From Chthoniobacter flavus (GTDB lineage Bacteria > Verrucomicrobiota > Verrucomicrobiia > Chthoniobacterales > JACTMZ01), in NCBI GenBank assembly GCA_945878135.1, contig CAMDUL010000002.1:79349-143348 (forward strand): DNA of 64,000 nt. Reading direction: 5' to 3'. The notes beneath the pieces are model-generated. The model was given only the letters and a program-made list of their open reading frames with translations. It made no database searches and was not told where the DNA came from. The first letter of the stretch is position 1. Every line of letters begins with the position of its first letter. Positions 37,099 to 62,070 of the stretch are shown here, piece by piece. Position numbers and translations under genes: made by a program.

Positions 37099-37317
37099 AT
37101 GCCTGATCCGAAGAAAGCGCCGGAAAAGCCGAAACACGCCCTTGAAACCGAGGTCATCTGGGCGGTTATCGGGCTCTATCTCTTCATCGCCGGCGTCCTT
37201 CTCCTCATCCACCACCTGCAACCCGAGGGACAGGAGACAAAATCGTCGTCGCCTTCGCCCAGCCACGCCTCGCAATACGGCGTGCCCGGCGGCGAACCGC
37301 ACGCCACCCGGCCATGA
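37099..37317 (+). CDS. hypothetical small single-pass membrane protein
   Basis: The 72-aa protein has one TM segment ('VIWAVIGLYLFIAGVLLLI'). Its stop overlaps the corA start (ATGA), suggesting translational coupling. Confidence 0.4.
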   Translation: MPDPKKAPEKPKHALETEVIWAVIGLYLFIAGVLLLIHHLQPEGQETKSSSPSPSHASQYGVPGGEPHATRP

Positions 37318-38279
37318 TCACTGCGTTCTTCAAGGACAACGGCAGCTTCCGCTTCACCCGGGAAGTGCAGACCGTCGAAGGACTCAAGGATGCCGTGTGG
37401 ATCGATGTCCTGCGCCCCACGCCCGAGGAGAAGGACATCCTCCGCTCCGCCCTGCAGATCGAACTGACCCTGCAGCATCCGACCATCTACCACGAGGACG
37501 ACACGCTCTTCATGACCATGGGCCTGGTCAGCAAGGACGAGGAAAACGAAACGCGGGTCAACAAGCTCACCTTCATCCTGCACGAGGATTGCGTCGTCAC
37601 CCTGCACGAGATCGAACTCATGCCCGTGGCCGTCTTCGCCCAGCGCATCCGCCGCAAAGCGCATCTTTATGACACCCCGCAGAAAATCCTCTGGGGCCTC
37701 CTCTTTGCCCTGAGCGAAACCGTGGCCGACCGCGTCGAGGCCGTCGGCACCGACCTCGAGCAATTGTCGAAAAACATCGCCGAGATGCCGACCGAACTCG
37801 GCACGGGCAAGACCGGCACCATGACCGAAATCAGCGAACTGCTCGCCGAGCTGTCGCGCTACGAGGACTTCATCTCCCAGAGCGGCGAGAGCGTGCTGCA
37901 ACTGGCCCGGGTCGTCCGCTACTTCAACGCCGAAGTCGACGGCTTCACCGATGCCGAGCTGCAGGCCCGGGTCAACGAACTGGCCGCGGACGTCGCCGGG
38001 ATCAAAGACCACCTCGCGTTTGAACACGACAAAGTCCGCTACCTGCAGCAGGCCTCCATGGGTATCCTGAACATGCAGCAGAACCAGATCGTCAAAGTTT
38101 TCACCATTCTGACGGCCGTGTTTCTCCCGCCAACGCTGGTCGGCACGATGTATGGGATGAACTTCTCCTACATGCCCGAGCTGTCCTGGAAGTGGGGCTT
38201 CCCCGTGACCATCGGCCTGACCTTCCTCTCCGCCATCCTCCCGCTCATCTACATCAAGAAAAAGCGCTGGCTGCGCTGA
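37314..38279 (+). CDS. corA: CorA-family magnesium/cobalt transporter
   Basis: The signature 'YGMNF' lies between two C-terminal TM helices, in a 321-aa protein. Confidence 0.9.
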   Translation: MITAFFKDNGSFRFTREVQTVEGLKDAVWIDVLRPTPEEKDILRSALQIELTLQHPTIYHEDDTLFMTMGLVSKDEENETRVNKLTFILHEDCVVTLHEIELMPVAVFAQRIRRKAHLYDTPQKILWGLLFALSETVADRVEAVGTDLEQLSKNIAEMPTELGTGKTGTMTEISELLAELSRYEDFISQSGESVLQLARVVRYFNAEVDGFTDAELQARVNELAADVAGIKDHLAFEHDKVRYLQQASMGILNMQQNQIVKVFTILTAVFLPPTLVGTMYGMNFSYMPELSWKWGFPVTIGLTFLSAILPLIYIKKKRWLR

Positions 38280-38285
38280 TCACCC

Positions 38286-38699
38286 GTGGCACGGGAAAAA
38301 AAACAGCGCATCGCCACGGACGCCGCACCGGAGCTGCGGACGAATCCCTTTGCCGCCCTCGAAATCCAAGGCCGCGAATCCCAAAAAGGTAGGGACACGC
38401 GGCCCGCGTGTCCGGCTCGACACCAACGGCCGAGCGAGCCGCTCGGCCCTACCTCCACCGTACGCCTCCTCCTGCGCCGCTCGACCGCCCACCGCGGCGG
38501 CAAAACCGTCCTCGTCCTCGAAGGATTTTCCCCCGCCTGGAACGAAGCCAAGTTGGGCGACCTCCTGCGCGAATTGAAAGCCTGCCTCGGCTGCGGCGGT
38601 CAAATCAACGCCCGCACGATCGAAATCCAAGGCGACCAACCCGACCGTCTGCAACCCCTGCTCGAATCCCGCGGCTTCGCCATCAAACGCGGTTGGTGA
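38286..38699 (+). CDS. yciH: translation initiation factor SUI1/eIF1 family (YciH-like), carrying a 22-aa repeat-encoded insertion
   Basis: The SUI1 core 'VRLLLRRSTAHRGGKTVLVLEGF...LRELKACLGCGGQINARTIEIQGDQPDRLQPLLESRGF' is present. The gene has a GTG start. Residues 35-56 are encoded by the 66-nt element at 38388-38453. Confidence 0.8.
   Translation: MAREKKQRIATDAAPELRTNPFAALEIQGRESQKGRDTRPACPARHQRPSEPLGPTSTVRLLLRRSTAHRGGKTVLVLEGFSPAWNEAKLGDLLRELKACLGCGGQINARTIEIQGDQPDRLQPLLESRGFAIKRGW
38388..38453. repeat. 66-nt double-hairpin palindromic element, copy 1 (inside yciH, in frame)
   Basis: The element reads GGTAG-GGACACGCGGCCCGCGTGTCC-GGCTCGACACCAAC-GGCCGAGCGAGCCGCTCGGCC-CTACC. Both 21-nt modules are perfect 9-bp stems with 3-nt loops. 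Confidence 0.9.
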
Positions 38700-38744
38700 A
38701 GCTATCGGCCGCAGCCAGCGGTCAAGGCGCCCCGCTGATCAGTT

Positions 38745-39149
38745 TCAAACTCCGGCGAAATCCGCAGGATCGATGGCAACCTTCGGGCAGGCTTTTCGCA
38801 GGGGCTTGTCGAAGGTGAGTAGCGGAACCTTGAGCGCCTCGGCCAGACAAACGAATTCCGCATCGTAGGCCGTCACATTTTTCCCGTGCGTCAGATCCAG
38901 AACATCATCGGACGGCAGCGCATACTCACGACCGCGCCACAGGGCCTCGGCCGCCTCCATCGTTTGCTTGGCCTGGGTCAGGGACATGCCCTCGTGGCGA
39001 ATGTAAAGCGTGAGAATATTCCTCATCTCAGACCGGCAAACGATGGGCACTGCCCACTCGGGATCCCTGCGGAAGACTCTTTCCGCCAGCAAACTTTTCT
39101 CTCCCGGAATCAGAAGGTAAGCGATGAGGTTCGAATCGACCACGATCAT
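38745..39149 (-). CDS. vapC: PIN-domain ribonuclease toxin VapC
   Basis: The N-terminal 'MIVVDSNLIAYLL' and the later acidic residues ('AYDAEFVCLAEAL') fit a PIN domain. The gene overlaps the upstream antitoxin gene by 4 nt. Confidence 0.85.
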   Translation of the reverse strand: MIVVDSNLIAYLLIPGEKSLLAERVFRRDPEWAVPIVCRSEMRNILTLYIRHEGMSLTQAKQTMEAAEALWRGREYALPSDDVLDLTHGKNVTAYDAEFVCLAEALKVPLLTFDKPLRKACPKVAIDPADFAGV

Positions 39150-39385
39150 GGCCGACCTTCGCTTTTGGCCGCAAAGATAAGGCGGTCCGTCAGTTTTCCC
39201 GGCAGCGAATCGCGGTGACGCCGGATGTCGGCAAGCATGGTCGCGACATCCACCTTGCTCGGCGCAACCGCGCTCTCAAGACAGGCCAACGCCTCTCTGT
39301 TCAGACTGCGTCCATGCTGCTTGGCGCGGGCTTTCAACGCCTTGTGCACAGTGGAAGGAATATCTTTGAGCGTGATGGTCACCAT
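39146..39385 (-). CDS. vapB: ribbon-helix-helix (Arc/FitA-like) antitoxin VapB
   Basis: The sequence 'MVTITLKDIPSTVHKALKARAKQHGRSLNREALACLE' fits the Arc/FitA RHH pattern. It lies upstream of and overlaps vapC. Confidence 0.8.
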   Translation of the reverse strand: MVTITLKDIPSTVHKALKARAKQHGRSLNREALACLESAVAPSKVDVATMLADIRRHRDSLPGKLTDRLIFAAKSEGRP

Positions 39386-46322: not shown

Positions 46323-47231
46323 CTACATCTTTGGAAGCAAAAACCGCAAGGCCACCGGCAAGCGCTTGGCCCACGCCTTCTCGTTGTGCTCGTCGCCCTC
46401 CCCCGGATTCCAAAGAAAGTCCTTTCCCTCAACGTAGCCCTGCTTGAGCAAGGCGTCGCGCACGGCCAACGCATCTTTCCAGTAGTCGCCGGTAAGGCTC
46501 CCTTTCTCCCGCGTGCCCATGTCCATGTAGATGCGCAGACCATCCTTCTTCGTTCCTTCCATCACCGCCTTGGTGAAATTCGGACTCGTCCAGAAAGCCG
46601 GCGAAAAAACACCAACCGCCCCGAAAACATCCGTGTTCAATCCCAGCCAGAGCGAAACGAGCCCGCCCATCGAGGAACCGGCCGCCACCGTGTTCGCCCG
46701 GTCCGGAAGCGTCCGGTATTTCCCGTCGATGGCCGGCTTCACTTTGCCGGCGAGAAAATTCCCGTAGTGGTCGCAGAGTCCCGGGCCGCGCGACGGGTCG
46801 CGCGGATTCGTGTCGCCCGGCGGCTGATATTCCGTGACCCGCGCATTCCCGAGATCCGCCTCGTTGTTCGGCACGGCCACAATGATCGCTTCGCGCACGC
46901 GGCCGGCCTTCATTTCTTCCGCCGCCGCATCCTCCGCGAACCAGCATCCGAAGGGTCCGCCCGGACGGAACACATTCTGCCCGTCATGGAAATAAATCAC
47001 CGGATACCGCTCTTCTCCTTTGTCATAGCCCGCAGGCAACCAGACCCGCACCTCGCGCGAGGGAATCGAAGCATCATCCGACTCCACCAGCAACGTCTCG
47101 ATCCTCCCACCCGCGCAAGCATTCACCGCCAACAAAAGCAGAACCTGGAGCGTCAACAGCCTGTCCGTCCGCTTGCGGATCCCCGGCCACGGCACTACTC
47201 TCGTGCCAATTCCCAAAAGCGTTCGGGCCAT
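46323..47231 (-). CDS. secreted alpha/beta-hydrolase 'putative esterase' family (enterochelin-esterase/CE1-like)
   Basis: The sequence 'YPVIYFHDGQNVF' and the nucleophile elbow 'AAGSSMGGLVSL' are present. The start is chosen at 'MARTLLGIG...' (47231), which has a signal-like region. The track's earlier start at 47279 lies inside the repeat element. Confidence 0.8.
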   Translation of the reverse strand: MARTLLGIGTRVVPWPGIRKRTDRLLTLQVLLLLAVNACAGGRIETLLVESDDASIPSREVRVWLPAGYDKGEERYPVIYFHDGQNVFRPGGPFGCWFAEDAAAEEMKAGRVREAIIVAVPNNEADLGNARVTEYQPPGDTNPRDPSRGPGLCDHYGNFLAGKVKPAIDGKYRTLPDRANTVAAGSSMGGLVSLWLGLNTDVFGAVGVFSPAFWTSPNFTKAVMEGTKKDGLRIYMDMGTREKGSLTGDYWKDALAVRDALLKQGYVEGKDFLWNPGEGDEHNEKAWAKRLPVALRFLLPKM

Positions 47232-47240
47232 GCTCCCCAA

Positions 47241-47306
47241 GGTAGGGACGAGCGGCCCGCTCGTCTGCTCTTTTCCCAACGGACACGCGGGTTGCGTGTC
47301 CCTACC
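47241..47306. repeat. 66-nt double-hairpin palindromic element, copy 2 (9 nt upstream of esterase start)
   Basis: The element reads GGTAG-GGACGAGCGGCCCGCTCGTCT-GCTCTTTTCCCAAC-GGACACGCGGGTTGCGTGTCC-CTACC. Confidence 0.9.
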
Positions 47307-47695
47307 CTCCCGAGTAACTCGAAGTGTTTTGAGGCACCGACGCTCATAGACCGCCGCTACAATTTTTTGTCGAGGTGTAGCGGCGCTCTATGAGCGTCGG
47401 TGCCTTTCCCTCTTTGCAACGAGAGTAGCCCCAGTTACTCCCAAACCACACCCGCCCACGTGCGGGTTCGGGGACTCCCGAGTAACTTGAAGTGTTTTCG
47501 CGCAGCGACGGTCATATCAGTTGGCTTCGCTTTGCTTCAGCCTGTCTCGCCAAGCCTCGGCTGACGCGCCGCGACAAGCTTTCGTCGAGGTGTAGCGGCG
47601 CTCTATGAGCGTCGGTGCCTTTCCCTCTGGCAGGGACTGGTGACCCCAGTTACTCCCAAACCACACCCGCCGCGCGCGGGTTCAGGGACTCCCTA
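47307..47695. repeat. non-coding block of two tandem repeat units (about 168 and 218 bp) containing a 30-bp inverted repeat
   Basis: Three segments recur with only a few substitutions. Segment 47307-47330 recurs at 47475-47498. Segment 47369-47413 recurs at 47584-47627. Segment 47431-47479 recurs at 47645-47693. In unit 1 the arms 47332-47361 and 47376-47405 form an inverted repeat matching at 29 of 30 positions. Confidence 0.85.
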
Positions 47696-47718
47696 ACGCA
47701 AGCAACTTGCCACGGCAG

Positions 47719-47771
47719 GGATCGCTGGCCTCTGAGCCCGTAGGGCTCCACGAGCCGGAGGCCAGCGATCC
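47719..47771. other. nested perfect hairpin
   Basis: The outer stem GGATCGCTGGCCTC (47719-32) / GAGGCCAGCGATCC (47758-71) is a perfect 14 bp. It encloses an inner hairpin GAGCCC-GTA-GGGCTC (47734-48). Confidence 0.7.
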
Positions 47772-47835
47772 GCACCAACGACCCTTAACTCGGAATATTT
47801 GTCATCACACCCATTCTGTGGTTTCGTCTCTCCGG

Positions 47836-48063
47836 ATGAGCGCCGCCGGAGTCATGAATCTCGCCAAGCAGCTCCCCGAAAAGGAGGTGCTCGACTTGGC
47901 GCGGCTGCTCGACGCATGGACTGCCGCTATGGTTGATCAAAAACTCGAAGCTGCCGTTCAATCCGGCGCTTTCGACCAAATGGCGGCCGATGCCCTGCAA
48001 GAGTTGGAGAACGGGAAGACCATTCCTCTCGATGAAGTCCTCCACGACCCGCGCCTTTCGTAA
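47836..48063 (+). CDS. hypothetical small protein (75 aa), weakly antitoxin/addiction-module-component-like
   Basis: This is the protein-like part of ORF 47707..48063. It reads 'MSAAGVMNLAKQLPEKEVLDLARLLDAW...ALQELENGKTIPLDEVL'. The resemblance is only by pattern, and there is no partner toxin gene adjacent. Confidence 0.35.
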   Translation: MSAAGVMNLAKQLPEKEVLDLARLLDAWTAAMVDQKLEAAVQSGAFDQMAADALQELENGKTIPLDEVLHDPRLS

Positions 48064-48127
48064 GCTACGAAAGGCAAGTGTGGCAAAAGATTGACCTCCG
48101 CGGCCCGTCCACGTGCCATCAACCCCG

Positions 48128-48997: not shown

Positions 48998-50016
48998 AAA
49001 TTTGGACGCACCACTACACGCTGGAGCCCGGATCCGATCCGGCCCGCGCCGCGCGTAGTCCGCGTCACGGTGCACTTCTCCGCGTGGAGTTCGACGATGA
49101 AACCATCGGCCATGCCGACCTGCATCCGTGGGAGGAATTCGGCCACGCTCCCTTGGCCGAGAATCTTGGCTCGCTGCGCACGGACCAACCGACACCCTTG
49201 GCCGACCTTGCCGTGCGTCACGCGCGCATCGATGCCGCCGCACGCCGAGCCGGCCTTTCGCTTTTCGACGGAATCCCCGAAGTGCGCAGCCATGCGCTCT
49301 TCACCAATTGGGCCGCTGCGCCGCGCAGCGCATTCGAAGAGTGCGTCGTCGATGGCTACACCGCGGCCAAACTCAAGATCGGACATGATCCCGAACGCGA
49401 ATCCGCCGCACTCAACGCCCTCGCCGGTTTGCCGCTACGCTGGCGTTTGGATGCCAATGCCCAAGGTAGGGACGAGCGGCCCGCTCGTCCGCTTGATCCG
49501 ATCCGGACGAGCGGGCCGCTCGTCCCTGCCCATTTCCTCGCGCAATTGTCCGCCGGCATCCTCCGAAATATCGAATTCCTCGAAGACCCCACACCCTACA
49601 ATAGCGCCGCATGGTCCGCCCTGAGCGAACGCGAAAAAATTCCCCTCGCCCTCGACTGGGAACTTCCCTCCTCCCCGCCGCCATGGCCCGGCGCGCGAAT
49701 CCTCGTGATCAAACCCGCCTCGCAAGACGCCTTCCCCCTCGCCCTCGCCGCCGCGCACGCCGGGATGGAAATTGTCGTTACCCACAGCATGGACCATCCC
49801 CTCGGCCAAGCCGTCGCGCTCTGGACCGCCATGCGTTTACGCCAGCGGCATGGCGATCTCGTCCGCGACGGCGGCCTCCAAACCAAGGGACTTTACCAAG
49901 CGGACGAATTCAGCGCCCAAATCCGGACCCTCGGACCGCACACCGCGCCGCCCCCGGGCACGGGCTTCGGTTTCGACGGGTTGCTCGGACGACTCCCATG
50001 GAAAACCCTCCCATGA
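48994..50016 (+). CDS. menC: o-succinylbenzoate synthase (enolase superfamily), carrying a 22-aa repeat-encoded insertion
   Basis: The motifs 'KLKIG', 'RLDAN' and 'IEFLEDP' are present, with later acidic/lysine motifs. The gene lies directly after menA, with its GTG start overlapping the menA stop (GTGA). Assignment of the subfamily relies partly on this context. Confidence 0.75.
   Translation: MKIWTHHYTLEPGSDPARAARSPRHGALLRVEFDDETIGHADLHPWEEFGHAPLAENLGSLRTDQPTPLADLAVRHARIDAAARRAGLSLFDGIPEVRSHALFTNWAAAPRSAFEECVVDGYTAAKLKIGHDPERESAALNALAGLPLRWRLDANAQGRDERPARPLDPIRTSGPLVPAHFLAQLSAGILRNIEFLEDPTPYNSAAWSALSEREKIPLALDWELPSSPPPWPGARILVIKPASQDAFPLALAAAHAGMEIVVTHSMDHPLGQAVALWTAMRLRQRHGDLVRDGGLQTKGLYQADEFSAQIRTLGPHTAPPPGTGFGFDGLLGRLPWKTLP
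49465..49530. repeat. 66-nt double-hairpin palindromic element, copy 3 (inside menC, in frame)
   Basis: The element reads GGTAG-GGACGAGCGGCCCGCTCGTCC-GCTTGATCCGATCC-GGACGAGCGGGCCGCTCGTCC-CTGCC. Confidence 0.9.
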
Positions 50017-62003: not shown

Positions 62004-62070
62004 GGTAGGGACACGCGGCTCGCGTGTCCGTTTGGAACGGATGCGGACGAGCGGGCCGCCCGTCCCTAAC
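62004..62070. repeat. 67-nt double-hairpin palindromic element, copy 4 (intergenic, upstream of dgkA)
   Basis: The element reads GGTAG-GGACACGCGGCTCGCGTGTCC-GTTTGGAACGGATGC-GGACGAGCGGGCCGCCCGTCC-CTAAC. It has one stem mismatch and one mismatch in the terminal repeat. Confidence 0.85.

What the first reader, a model, noticed from the sequence alone, without database searches (positions are those of the whole stretch)
38388..38453. The same 66-nt element is inserted in-frame, in the same phase, in the translation factor gene yciH/SUI1
The element begins exactly 34 codons after the GTG start at 38286. It is translated as GRDTRPACPARHQRPSEPLGPT, between '...EIQGRESQK' and the SUI1 core 'STVRLLLRRSTAHRGGKTVLVLEGF'. 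Removing it gives a 115-aa protein, closer to the size of E. coli YciH as I recall it. Both hairpin modules are perfect 9-bp stems. The right-hand module is a third sequence variant (GGCCGAGCG-AGC-CGCTCGGCC), which again shows compensatory change. Two out of two intragenic copies share orientation and phase, giving G-R-D-x-R-P-A-x-P...P-L-x-P. This suggests selection for a tolerated, stop-free reading frame.
Basis: seen in the sequence. Interest (0 to 1): 0.7.

Follow-up and report, generated by a model that had tools for sequence, protein, structure and literature searches.

The report
Translated REP hairpin pair inside yciH
A 66-base mobile palindromic repeat (two GTAG-tagged REP hairpins) sits in frame in the floppy linker of the small translation-factor gene yciH of a freshwater Verrucomicrobium. 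Related lineages have inherited it there, and it is conserved as a nucleic-acid hairpin rather than as a peptide. It is a clear example of a phenomenon already described in this phylum.

Summary
Positions 38388-38453 hold a 66-nt element: GTAG head, perfect 9-bp hairpin, 14-nt spacer, then the mirror image. It lies in frame, 34 codons into a SUI1/YciH gene whose only canonical start (GTG 38286) is upstream.

Orthologues settle the reading. The N-terminal 30 residues are conserved with normal codon periodicity, so the element is translated. Fifteen orthologues carry it at the same codon and others lack it, including a contig 93-100% (mostly 97-100%) identical in the flanks.

The element is a GTAG-REP doublet (REPIN type). 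The family is scattered through Verrucomicrobiota, mostly between genes, and flanks RayT-like genes in two related genomes.

Di Nocera et al. 2013 already reported many intragenic GTAG REPs in Opitutus terrae, including one in its SUI1 gene. The kind is therefore known.

What I add is evidence of old, nucleotide-level constraint:
- Three base pairs show compensatory double changes that alter the amino acids.
- Stem third-codon positions are about five times less variable than flanking third positions.
- The spacer drifts neutrally.

The element is a palindrome, four of six frames are open by composition, and n = 2.

The parts
37314..38279 (+). corA-like Mg2+ transporter gene. Its stop lies 6 nt before the yciH start, so the two genes are probably co-transcribed.
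   Evidence: Pfam PF01544, E = 2e-47. Same gene order in orthologous loci.
38286..38699 (+). yciH/SUI1-family gene, 137 aa, GTG start.
   Evidence: AlphaFold predicts residues 1-57 disordered (block-mean pLDDT 37-56) and the SUI1 fold at residues 59-135 (block-mean pLDDT about 78-87).
38286..38387 (+). Conserved N-terminal coding segment (34 codons) upstream of the element.
   Evidence: Conserved in all orthologue classes. Codon-position diversity 0.16/0.10/0.44.
38388..38453 (+). 66-nt GTAG-REP doublet (REPIN-like), translated in phase 0 as GRDTRPACPARHQRPSEPLGPT (aa 35-56).
38389..38413 (+). Left REP unit: GTAG head (38389-38392), then hairpin GGACACGCG-GCC-CGCGTGTCC (38393-38413).
   Evidence: Pairs 6-14 with 18-26 in alignment A3.
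38414..38427 (+). 14-nt spacer that evolves like neutral sequence.
   Evidence: Diversity 0.31/0.35/0.37 at the three codon positions. Not different from flanking third positions, p = 0.71.
38428..38452 (-). Right REP unit on the opposite strand: GTAG head (complement of 38449-38452), then hairpin GGCCGAGCG-GCT-CGCTCGGCC.
   Evidence: 0 mismatches on the - strand. Pairs 41-49 with 53-61 in A3.
38280..38454 (.). Short mosaic patch (left edge approximate). Here the window resembles element-bearing alleles (L120, 83-93% in 90-nt windows). Its closest relative outside the patch, L124, is only 51-70% identical here and lacks the element. The right breakpoint is at the element's right end.
47241..47306 (.). 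Second doublet copy, intergenic (5' of an esterase gene).
   Evidence: Absent from syntenic L025.
49465..49530 (+). Third doublet copy, in frame (phase 0) in an o-succinylbenzoate-synthase-like gene. The two modules form a 27-bp perfect palindrome.
   Evidence: Orthologue L025 lacks it.
62004..62070 (.). Fourth doublet copy, intergenic.
   Evidence: Absent from syntenic L012.

Best explanation
The element is a doublet of GTAG-tagged repetitive extragenic palindromes. Two REP units (GTAG head plus 9-bp hairpin) sit tail to tail around a 14-nt spacer, which is the REPIN architecture. It belongs to a REP family spread through Verrucomicrobiota.

Inferred history:
- The doublet was copied into the yciH gene once, in an ancestor of a group of Chthoniobacterales, probably by a RayT-type HUH tyrosine transposase acting on single-stranded hairpin DNA.
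- It landed in the disordered linker between the conserved N-terminal tail and the SUI1 fold.
- It was tolerated because it is 66 nt (22 codons), has no stop in that phase, and encodes a Gly/Pro/Arg-rich flexible peptide.

Shown:
- The gene stayed functional.
- The element has been inherited vertically and has also moved between lineages on a short recombination patch.
- Its GTAG heads and stems are kept by constraint on the nucleic acid, not on the peptide. Mutations in one arm are followed by compensating mutations in the other, even though both change amino acids. The spacer drifts freely.

Not determined: what the constraint serves. Candidates are RayT recognition, an mRNA hairpin in the corA-yciH transcript, or a DNA structure.
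For: Anatomy:
- GTAG plus hairpin on both strands.
- The fold is significant as both RNA and DNA.

Family:
- The pattern GGTAGGGACNNGCGGNCCGCNNGTCC occurs in more than 118 genome stretches. Almost all carry Verrucomicrobiota labels; single hits are labelled Pirellulales (L089) and Kiritimatiellae (L032).
- I found 63 doublets, 26 of them 66 nt long.
- 198 of 280 half-sites have perfect stems, in many complementary stem variants.
- Most copies are intergenic.

RayT link:
They carry HUH and Y..NPV motifs.
- They are flanked by these REPs in L084 and L021.
- The L084 protein cluster is named "REP element-mobilizing transposase RayT" by JGI.

Translated and intragenic:
- There is only one possible start.
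- The N-terminal region is conserved.
- The insert lies in a segment with pLDDT below 50, just before strand 1 of the SUI1 fold.

Presence and absence:
- 59 of the 120 best clusters have the 136-139-aa length. The peptide was verified in the 16 I aligned.
- Element-free forms are 125-133 aa.
- L124 is 93-100% (mostly 97-100%) identical in the flanks and lacks the element.

Single old insertion:
- The codon position is the same in 15 DNA sequences.
- Flank third-position diversity is 0.29-0.44.
- The yciH-specific stem variants GGCCGAGCG, GGCCGGGCG and GGACCCGCG occur 0, 2 and 0 times among 280 half-sites elsewhere.

Nucleotide-level constraint:
- 96.8% of cells are paired.
- Three pairs have changes on both sides (13 cells). 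No shuffle out of 500 reaches the observed covariation score, and slid controls give 34-46% paired.
- Intermediates exist: A.G in L155 and L151, G.T in L122 and L159.
- Stem third positions have pi = 0.065 against 0.330 in the flanks, p = 6e-5. The spacer has 0.344.

Unusual persistence: only the yciH copy, of the window's four, is shared with the CAZEYV01 Chthoniobacter MAG.
Against: - No RayT gene was seen in the window or in any Chthoniobacterales locus fetched. The source genome outside the window could not be searched.
- Two of the three RayT-like ORFs fall below Pfam's Y1_Tnp cut-off.
- The 15 orthologues are related and recombine, so the number of independent compensatory events is uncertain. 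The tree rests on 234 nt.
- The left hairpin has decayed in L144/L145 and is decaying in L151, so the constraint is not universal.
- Element-bearing proteins are only about 10 aa longer than element-free ones, not 22. The history therefore includes linker loss or allele replacement that I did not reconstruct.
- Translation is inferred from conservation, not observed.
Confidence: 0.78

Rival explanations
1. The hairpins have been taken over by the host as a cis-acting RNA element. A very stable stem-loop pair 100 nt into yciH, just after corA, would protect the upstream corA message from 3' exonucleases or slow ribosomes entering the SUI1 domain. That function would explain why the stems are kept. 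This extends the best explanation rather than excluding it.
For: - The constraint acts on the nucleic acid, not the peptide.
- The copy is retained far longer than the window's intergenic copies.
- corA and yciH are 6 nt apart, and the gene order is conserved.
- REPs stabilising upstream mRNA is established for E. coli malEFG (general knowledge).
- G.T mismatches (7) outnumber A.C mismatches (3) on the sense strand.
Against: - The 7 versus 3 count is not significant.
- Close relatives with the element-free allele (L124) keep the same operon, so the hairpin is dispensable.
- The left hairpin is lost in L144/L145.
- There are no transcript data.
Confidence: 0.25
2. The apparent compensation needs no selection. 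Either quasi-palindrome template switching during replication copies a mutation from one arm onto the other, or gene conversion from other REP copies in the genome keeps refreshing the yciH copy.
For: - Template-switch mutagenesis at quasi-palindromes is well documented in E. coli (general knowledge).
- Many REP copies are available as donors.
- A short recombination patch around the element is visible in the window itself.
Against: - Unbiased arm-to-arm copying does not lower the long-term substitution rate. Yet the stems are about three times less diverse than the spacer and five times less than flanking third positions.
- The yciH stem variants are rare or absent among 280 other half-sites, which argues against donors elsewhere. 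That sample is, however, biased towards GGAC-type stems by the search pattern.
- Unpaired intermediates persist in L155 and L151.
Confidence: 0.15
3. It is an ordinary TIR-type miniature transposon (MITE) moved by a DDE transposase, not a REP/RayT element.
For: - It has 26-nt terminal inverted repeats.
- It is small.
- It is dispersed.
Against: - No target-site duplication appears at 63 copies. There is only a weak A/G preference at positions -1 and -2.
- Each "TIR" is itself a GTAG-headed hairpin, and single units occur alone.
- RayT-like genes are flanked by the same units.
Confidence: 0.04
4. The element is not translated. Either the true start is downstream (a 5'-UTR copy), or the insertion killed the gene.
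For: In published surveys, many REPs annotated inside N-termini are really extragenic (PMC3733652).
Against: - There is no in-frame ATG, GTG or TTG between 38286 and the SUI1 core.
- The N-terminal 30 aa are conserved with coding-type periodicity in carriers and non-carriers.
- The reading frame is kept open across the element in all 15 orthologues, including one with a 6-nt spacer deletion.
- The downstream SUI1 part is under purifying selection.
Confidence: 0.03

Closest known systems
GTAG-tagged REPs and their intragenic copies in Opitutus terrae (Di Nocera, De Gregorio, Rocco 2013, BMC Genomics 14:522, PMC3733652)
   Same: - A GTAG head followed by a 6-9-bp stem, with sub-families that differ by complementary stem changes.
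- Frequent inverted dimers.
- A verrucomicrobial host.
- Dimers inside ORFs that encode 20-30 aa.
- The SUI1 gene Oter_4188 is listed with a REP at aa 45-51, the same linker region.
   Different: - The O. terrae SUI1 insert is a single unit of another family (GTAG-17, peptide PGSASPA).
- The present family (GGTAGGGAC-NNGCG...) and its 66-nt doublet are not shown to be any of GTAG-17 to -20.
- That paper did not examine orthologous retention, codon-position diversity or compensatory change within a coding copy.
REPIN-RAYT systems (REP doublets forming hairpins, mobilised by REP-associated tyrosine transposases; E. coli RayT/TnpA-REP structure, PMC3479197; PMC8266576)
   Same: - Two inverted REPs with a short spacer.
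- A GTAG recognition tetranucleotide 5' of the hairpin.
- RayT-like genes flanked by the same REPs (L084, L021).
- Mostly intergenic copies.
   Different: - A cognate RayT was not found for the source genome.
- Mobilisation was not tested.
- REPINs are by definition extragenic, whereas this copy is coding and old.
Rickettsia palindromic elements (RPE), "selfish DNA in protein-coding genes" (Ogata et al. 2000; cited in PMC3733652)
   Same: - Palindromic repeats inserted in frame in genes that stay functional.
- Inserts sit in permissive regions of the protein.
- Inserts are retained among related species.
   Different: - The sequence family is unrelated (CGTC-type or longer).
- The host is an obligate intracellular alpha-proteobacterium.
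- No RayT association is known.
E. coli YciH (PDB 1D1R), bacterial SUI1/eIF1 homologue
   Same: The SUI1 fold aligns at residues 50-134, preceded by an N-terminal tail.
   Different: E. coli YciH is 108 aa (from memory) and has no REP in its tail. The verrucomicrobial proteins have a longer conserved N-terminus plus a variable linker.

Membership tests
GTAG-REP (repetitive extragenic palindrome, GTAG super-family) | A 20-40-nt palindromic unit with a conserved GTAG tetranucleotide at one end. | tested here: met
   GTAG plus a 9-bp stem and 3-nt loop on both strands at 38389-38413 (+) and 38428-38452 (-), with 0 mismatches to the family pattern.
GTAG-REP (repetitive extragenic palindrome, GTAG super-family) | Many dispersed copies per genome, predominantly between genes. 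| tested here: met
   - 4 doublets in 64 kb.
- Of about 60 scorable doublets, only the yciH and menC copies are clearly intragenic.
- The copy number in the source genome itself is unknown.
GTAG-REP (repetitive extragenic palindrome, GTAG super-family) | Sub-families with alternative but complementary stem sequences. | tested here: met
   Stem arms GGACGGGCG, GGACGAGCG, GGACGCGCG, GGACACGCG and others. 198 of 280 half-sites are perfectly paired.
GTAG-REP (repetitive extragenic palindrome, GTAG super-family) | Extragenic location of the copy in question. | tested here: not met
   This copy is inside the yciH reading frame. Published surveys accept such intragenic exceptions (PMC3733652).
REPIN-RAYT system | Two REPs in inverted orientation separated by a short spacer, able to form one long hairpin. 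| tested here: met
   Tail-to-tail units with a 14-nt spacer. The copies at 47241, 49465 and 62004 fold as one long hairpin, and the yciH copy as two hairpins closed by the outer GGTAG/CTACC stem.
REPIN-RAYT system | A RayT (HUH Y1 transposase) gene flanked by the same REP (a REPtron). | tested here: inconclusive
   - Met in related genomes. L084 2613-3065 and L021 191-643 are flanked by these REPs, and the cluster is named RayT by JGI.
- L016 also carries a RayT-like ORF, but no convincing family half-sites lie beside it.
- None was found in the window or in the Chthoniobacterales loci held.
- The rest of the source genome was not available.
REPIN-RAYT system | Mobilisation or cleavage of the REP by the RayT. 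| not testable with these tools
   Needs biochemistry or genetics.
TIR-type MITE | Target-site duplication flanking the element. | tested here: not met
   No direct repeats at the ends of 63 doublets. There is only an A/G preference at positions -1 and -2.
Rickettsia palindromic elements (RPE) | Sequence membership in one of the RPE families. | not tested
   This is an analogy of behaviour only. The host phylum and the GTAG head differ from the CGTC-type RPE-4/-6 described in PMC3733652.
SUI1/YciH protein family | A SUI1 domain above the curated threshold. | tested here: met
   PF01253 scores 37.8 bits against a cut-off of 25.5. 1D1R matches at E = 1e-10. The predicted fold has the order strand-strand-helix-strand-strand-helix-strand over residues 59-135.
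Rfam RNA families | A match to any curated structured-RNA model. | tested here: not met
   No family reaches its gathering score at the element. The best local hit has E = 0.48.

The most novel reading that the evidence does not exclude
Inside a protein-coding gene, a selfish REP doublet has been kept across substantial sequence divergence because its nucleic-acid hairpins are under selection, not its peptide. The encoded amino acids change as a by-product of compensatory base-pair substitutions. The hairpins would then be a functional cis-element in the corA-yciH operon, or a required RayT contact. The yciH linker would be a recurrent REP landing pad from which new linker sequence is born: a doublet here, a single related REP-like hairpin in L137, and GTAG-17 in O. 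terrae.
Probability: 0.25. Interest if true: 0.6.

Novelty: new member of a known kind. Interest (0 to 1): 0.38.

Why it matters
On its own this is one more intragenic REP, a class catalogued in 2013 for the same phylum and even the same gene family. Its value is as a clean natural experiment:
- An orthologous series of at least 15 coding copies.
- Element-free alleles in near-identical genomes.
- Measurable selection on hairpin structure that overrides the protein code.

That makes it a good system for two open questions. First, what keeps REPs and REPINs alive over long times: RayT interaction, RNA function or DNA structure. Second, how selfish palindromes become protein linker sequence.

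For annotation, it is a reminder that 22-aa Gly/Pro/Arg-rich inserts in verrucomicrobial proteins can be REP-derived.

Tried and rejected
- A regex for RayT (H-hydrophobic-H plus two hydrophobic residues, then Y...NP) found nothing. These RayTs read HVHGL.
- Calling intragenic copies from spanning ORFs plus GC3 gave many false candidates in this G+C-rich DNA. I replaced it with a codon log-odds score trained on 281 long ORFs. That score is conservative and misses the yciH copies themselves, because their upstream flank runs into corA.
- Too few intragenic doublets were found to test the phase distribution. I used the openness of frames and the published O. terrae table instead.
- Rfam gave nothing.
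- I asked whether the element-free class B linker is a decayed element. The alignment shows no convincing similarity and the fold is not significant, so I rejected this. For class C (L137, possibly L131 and L132) a REP remnant is plausible but unproven.
- I compared G.T with A.C mismatches to separate RNA-level from DNA-level selection. The counts of 7 and 3 are not decisive.
- One DNA look-up (P0039) returned no sequence.
- The second literature search on compensatory change in RPEs gave nothing directly useful.
Full report
**1. Observation**

The sequence is as described.
- An ORF runs from GTG 38286 to the stop at 38697-38699 and encodes 137 aa.
- Positions 38388-38453 read GGTAG-GGACACGCG-GCC-CGCGTGTCC-GGCTCGACACCAAC-GGCCGAGCG-AGC-CGCTCGGCC-CTACC.
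- Both stems are perfect 9-bp helices, and the outer GGTAG/CTACC can pair.
- The element starts exactly 34 codons after the GTG and is read as GRDTRPACPARHQRPSEPLGPT.

It is not a chance feature.
- The left module recurs three times in the window, against none in 100 shuffles.
- Four full copies exist, at 38388, 47241, 49465 and 62004.
- The folding energy has z = -5.1.

The gene is a SUI1/YciH homologue (Pfam; PDB 1D1R). It follows a corA gene after 6 nt.

**2. Is the element really inside the protein?**

Between the in-frame TGA at 38277 and the SUI1 core, the only ATG, GTG or TTG in frame is the GTG at 38286.

A protein search returned 809 relatives.
- Among the best 120 clusters, 59 are 136-139 aa long and 61 are 128-129 aa.
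- An alignment of 25 of them (A1) shows that the first about 30 residues (MAREKKQRIATDAAPELRTNPFAALE) are conserved in both length classes.
- The same holds for the SUI1 part from ERLLLRRSTAHRGGKT onward.
- The long class carries the element peptide, with consensus GRDTRPACPPxxxRPSEPLGPT. The short class has an unrelated Pro/Ser/Ala-rich linker.

In 14 element-bearing genes, the N-terminal 29 codons show diversity 0.16/0.10/0.44 at codon positions 1/2/3. That is the signature of translated sequence.

AlphaFold on A1 predicts no structure for residues 1-57 (pLDDT mostly below 50). It predicts a confident SUI1 fold from residue 59.

The insert (aa 35-56) therefore lies in a disordered linker just before the domain.

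**3. Presence and absence at the DNA level**

A metagenome scan gave 32 orthologous loci, and look-ups gave nine more.
- Fifteen genes carry the element at the same codon position. L060, from the genome scan, is a further carrier.
- Element-free genes come in two kinds. "Class B" reads LDLGPLREGPSxPxPxxxxPKKEPxE. "Class C" keeps the LEIQGRE flank but has a short linker (L131, L132, L137).

L124 (class B) is 93-100% (mostly 97-100%) identical to the window over 37500-38265 and 38445-39300. It is only 51-70% identical over about 38310-38445. The element-bearing L120 is 83-93% identical across that stretch.

The window's yciH 5' part is thus a short mosaic patch whose right edge coincides with the right end of the element. 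The two alleles are exchanged between close lineages by homologous recombination.

In a small tree of the 3' part of the gene, class B alleles nest among element-bearing ones (234 nt, weak).

**4. What the element is**

Each half is a GTAG tetranucleotide followed directly by a hairpin, and the two halves are inverted. This is the architecture of GTAG REPs and of REP doublets (REPINs).

Almost all carry Verrucomicrobiota labels: Opitutaceae, Chthoniobacterales, Luteolibacter, Limisphaerales, Akkermansiaceae. Single hits are labelled Pirellulales and Kiritimatiellae.

In these loci I found:
- 63 doublets in length classes of 66 nt (26 copies), 79-83, 73-77, 63-65 and 54-57 nt.
- 280 half-sites, of which 198 have perfectly paired stems in many complementary variants.
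- No target-site duplication.

Three loci hold RayT-like ORFs with HUH and Y..NPV motifs (tblastn E down to 3e-13).
- In L084 the ORF is bracketed by REP units.
- In L021 (Luteolibacter algae) it is bracketed by REP doublets and followed by an array of doublets.
- In L016 no convincing family half-sites lie next to the ORF.
- JGI names the L084 protein cluster "REP element-mobilizing transposase RayT".

No RayT was found in the window or in the Chthoniobacterales loci held. The link to a transposase is therefore shown for the REP family, not for this genome.

**5. Prior knowledge**

Di Nocera, De Gregorio and Rocco (2013, PMC3733652) defined the GTAG and CGTC REP super-families. [quoted passage not shown] Their Additional file 3 lists Oter_4188, "translation initiation factor SUI1", 141 aa, with a single GTAG-17 REP at residues 45-51. 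That is the same linker hit by a different REP family.

They also argued that such inserts sit in flexible linkers and are probably neutral. The analogy with Rickettsia RPEs is drawn there too.

The class of event is therefore already known. The present family and its 66-nt doublet are a new member of it.

**6. What is added here: how the copy evolves**

I aligned the 15 orthologous elements (A3) and scored them against the two-hairpin-plus-outer-stem structure.
- 96.8% of cells are paired, against 34-46% in slid controls.
- Three pairs change on both sides: 10-22 A:U to C:G (4 sequences), 43-59 C:G to A:U (5), and 46-56 A:U to G:C (4).
- No shuffle out of 500 reaches the observed covariation score.
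- Each double change alters two amino acids: Thr/Cys to Pro/Gly, Pro/Gly to Thr/Val, and Ser/Leu to Gly/Pro.
- Half-way states exist: A.G in L155 and L151, next to C:G relatives, and G.T in L122 and L159.

Diversity tells the same story.

| Region | Codon positions | Diversity (pi) |
|---|---|---|
| Flanking yciH | 1 / 2 / 3 | 0.14-0.16 / 0.09-0.10 / 0.29-0.44 |
| Element heads and stems | 1 / 2 / 3 | 0.17 / 0.09 / 0.065 |
| Element spacer | 1 / 2 / 3 | 0.31 / 0.35 / 0.37 |

- Stem third positions are five-fold lower than flanking third positions (Mann-Whitney p = 6e-5).
- The spacer is indistinguishable from flanking third positions (p = 0.71).

The stems and heads are therefore constrained as nucleic acid. 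The spacer is unconstrained apart from staying open and in frame; L158 has a 6-nt deletion in it.

The patch is not simply young, because its spacer and the N-terminal third positions are highly diverged.

The stem variants typical of the yciH copy are rare elsewhere. GGCCGAGCG occurs in 7 of 15 orthologues, GGCCGGGCG in 4 and GGACCCGCG in 3. Among 280 other half-sites they occur 0, 2 and 0 times (that sample is biased by the search pattern). This argues for change in place rather than conversion from other copies.

The constraint is not absolute. The left hairpin has decayed in L144/L145 and partly in L151.

**7. Persistence compared with other copies**

One Chthoniobacter MAG (CAZEYV01) is 80-94% identical to the window in syntenic stretches.
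- It has the yciH copy (L155).
- It lacks the copies at 47241 and 49465 (L025).
- It lacks the copy at 62004 (L012).
- It has a copy of its own where the window has none.

Intergenic copies therefore turn over quickly, while the coding copy is long-lived. One reason may be that only a precise, frame-preserving loss is viable. Another may be that it is useful.

**8. The phase argument**

The menC copy (49465-49530) is a genuine in-frame insertion. The orthologue in L025 reads RLDANASLTAGGESIETFL where the window reads RLDANAQ, then 22 aa, then HFLAQL. It is in the same phase as the yciH copy.

This says little.
- In 26 copies of 66 nt, phases 0 and 1 are open in 22-23 copies in either orientation. 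The third phase is closed by the TAG of the head.
- Because the ends are mirror images, either orientation gives GRD.RPA...PL.PT.
- Only two of about 60 doublets were clearly intragenic, so no distribution could be tested.

**9. Mechanism, with steps marked**

Shown:
- The REP-doublet identity.
- In-frame position in a disordered linker.
- Retention among orthologues.
- Allele exchange on a short patch.
- Nucleotide-level constraint with compensatory change.

Inferred:
- Insertion by a RayT-type enzyme acting on single-stranded hairpins.
- A single ancestral insertion.
- Translation of the peptide.

Open: what selects for the hairpins. I rate a host-level RNA or DNA function at about 0.25. I rate a selection-free mechanism (template switching or conversion) at about 0.15. 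The remainder goes to persistence of a still-recognisable REP for reasons tied to the REP-RayT system itself.

**10. Verdict**

The phenomenon is already described for this phylum and gene family.

Interest is moderate (0.38). It rests on the unusually clear evidence that hairpin structure, not protein sequence, is what is conserved inside a coding region.

Noticed in passing
window 47307-47700: A second, unrelated structured repeat lies next to the REP doublet at 47241. It is a 30-bp near-perfect hairpin at 47331-47404 (RNA fold -63.6 kcal/mol, z = -9.9). Parts of the surrounding unit are repeated 168-215 nt downstream (47352-47413 and 47567-47628 are 94% identical). The whole stretch of about 1 kb (47102-48083) is replaced by 117 nt in the syntenic L025.
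   Followed up: partly
L021 100-2900 (Luteolibacter algae KCTC 22040, NZ_JBHUIT010000003.1): A RayT-like gene (191-643, - strand) is flanked by REP doublets. It is followed by an array of at least 20 REP units, alternating GGCCGACCG-type and GGACGYGCG-type hairpins, with a period of about 108 nt. This is a REPtron with a tandem doublet array.
   Followed up: partly
window 38280-38454 compared with L124 825-970: A metagenome contig that is 93-100% (mostly 97-100%) identical on both sides carries a different, element-free yciH 5' segment. The divergence ends exactly at the right end of the element. This suggests short-patch recombination of linker alleles, possibly with the REP acting as a breakpoint.
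   Followed up: partly
L137 2104-2130; L061 about 975-1010; L093 about 920-950: The yciH linker of L137 (no doublet) contains a single hairpin CGGGCG-TCC-CGCCCG at the place of the left module. The same 15-mer is the core of GGTAGGGA-CGGGCGTCCCGCCCG-TCC REP units in L061 and L093. Together with the published GTAG-17 REP in O. terrae SUI1, this suggests REPs have hit the yciH linker repeatedly, or that class C linkers are REP remnants.
   Followed up: partly
window 38745-39385 (- strand): A toxin-antitoxin-like pair lies directly downstream of yciH: a PIN-domain protein (38745-39149) and a FitA-like ribbon-helix-helix protein (39146-39385). It is present in L124. The region after 38700 is not homologous in L119-L122, so this is a variable insertion point.
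   Followed up: partly
window 49465-49530 compared with L025 2587-2657: The menC-like gene gains only 13 codons relative to the element-free orthologue, although the element is 22 codons. The yciH carriers likewise gain about 10. In both genes the insertion goes with loss or replacement of neighbouring native codons.
   Followed up: no
all 63 doublets in L001-L118 and the window: 35 of 63 doublet lengths are multiples of three, against about 21 expected. This is driven by the dominant 66-nt class, and I did not test whether it is more than family structure. The base just outside each GGTAGG end is A in 56% of cases and A or G in 84%.
   Followed up: no
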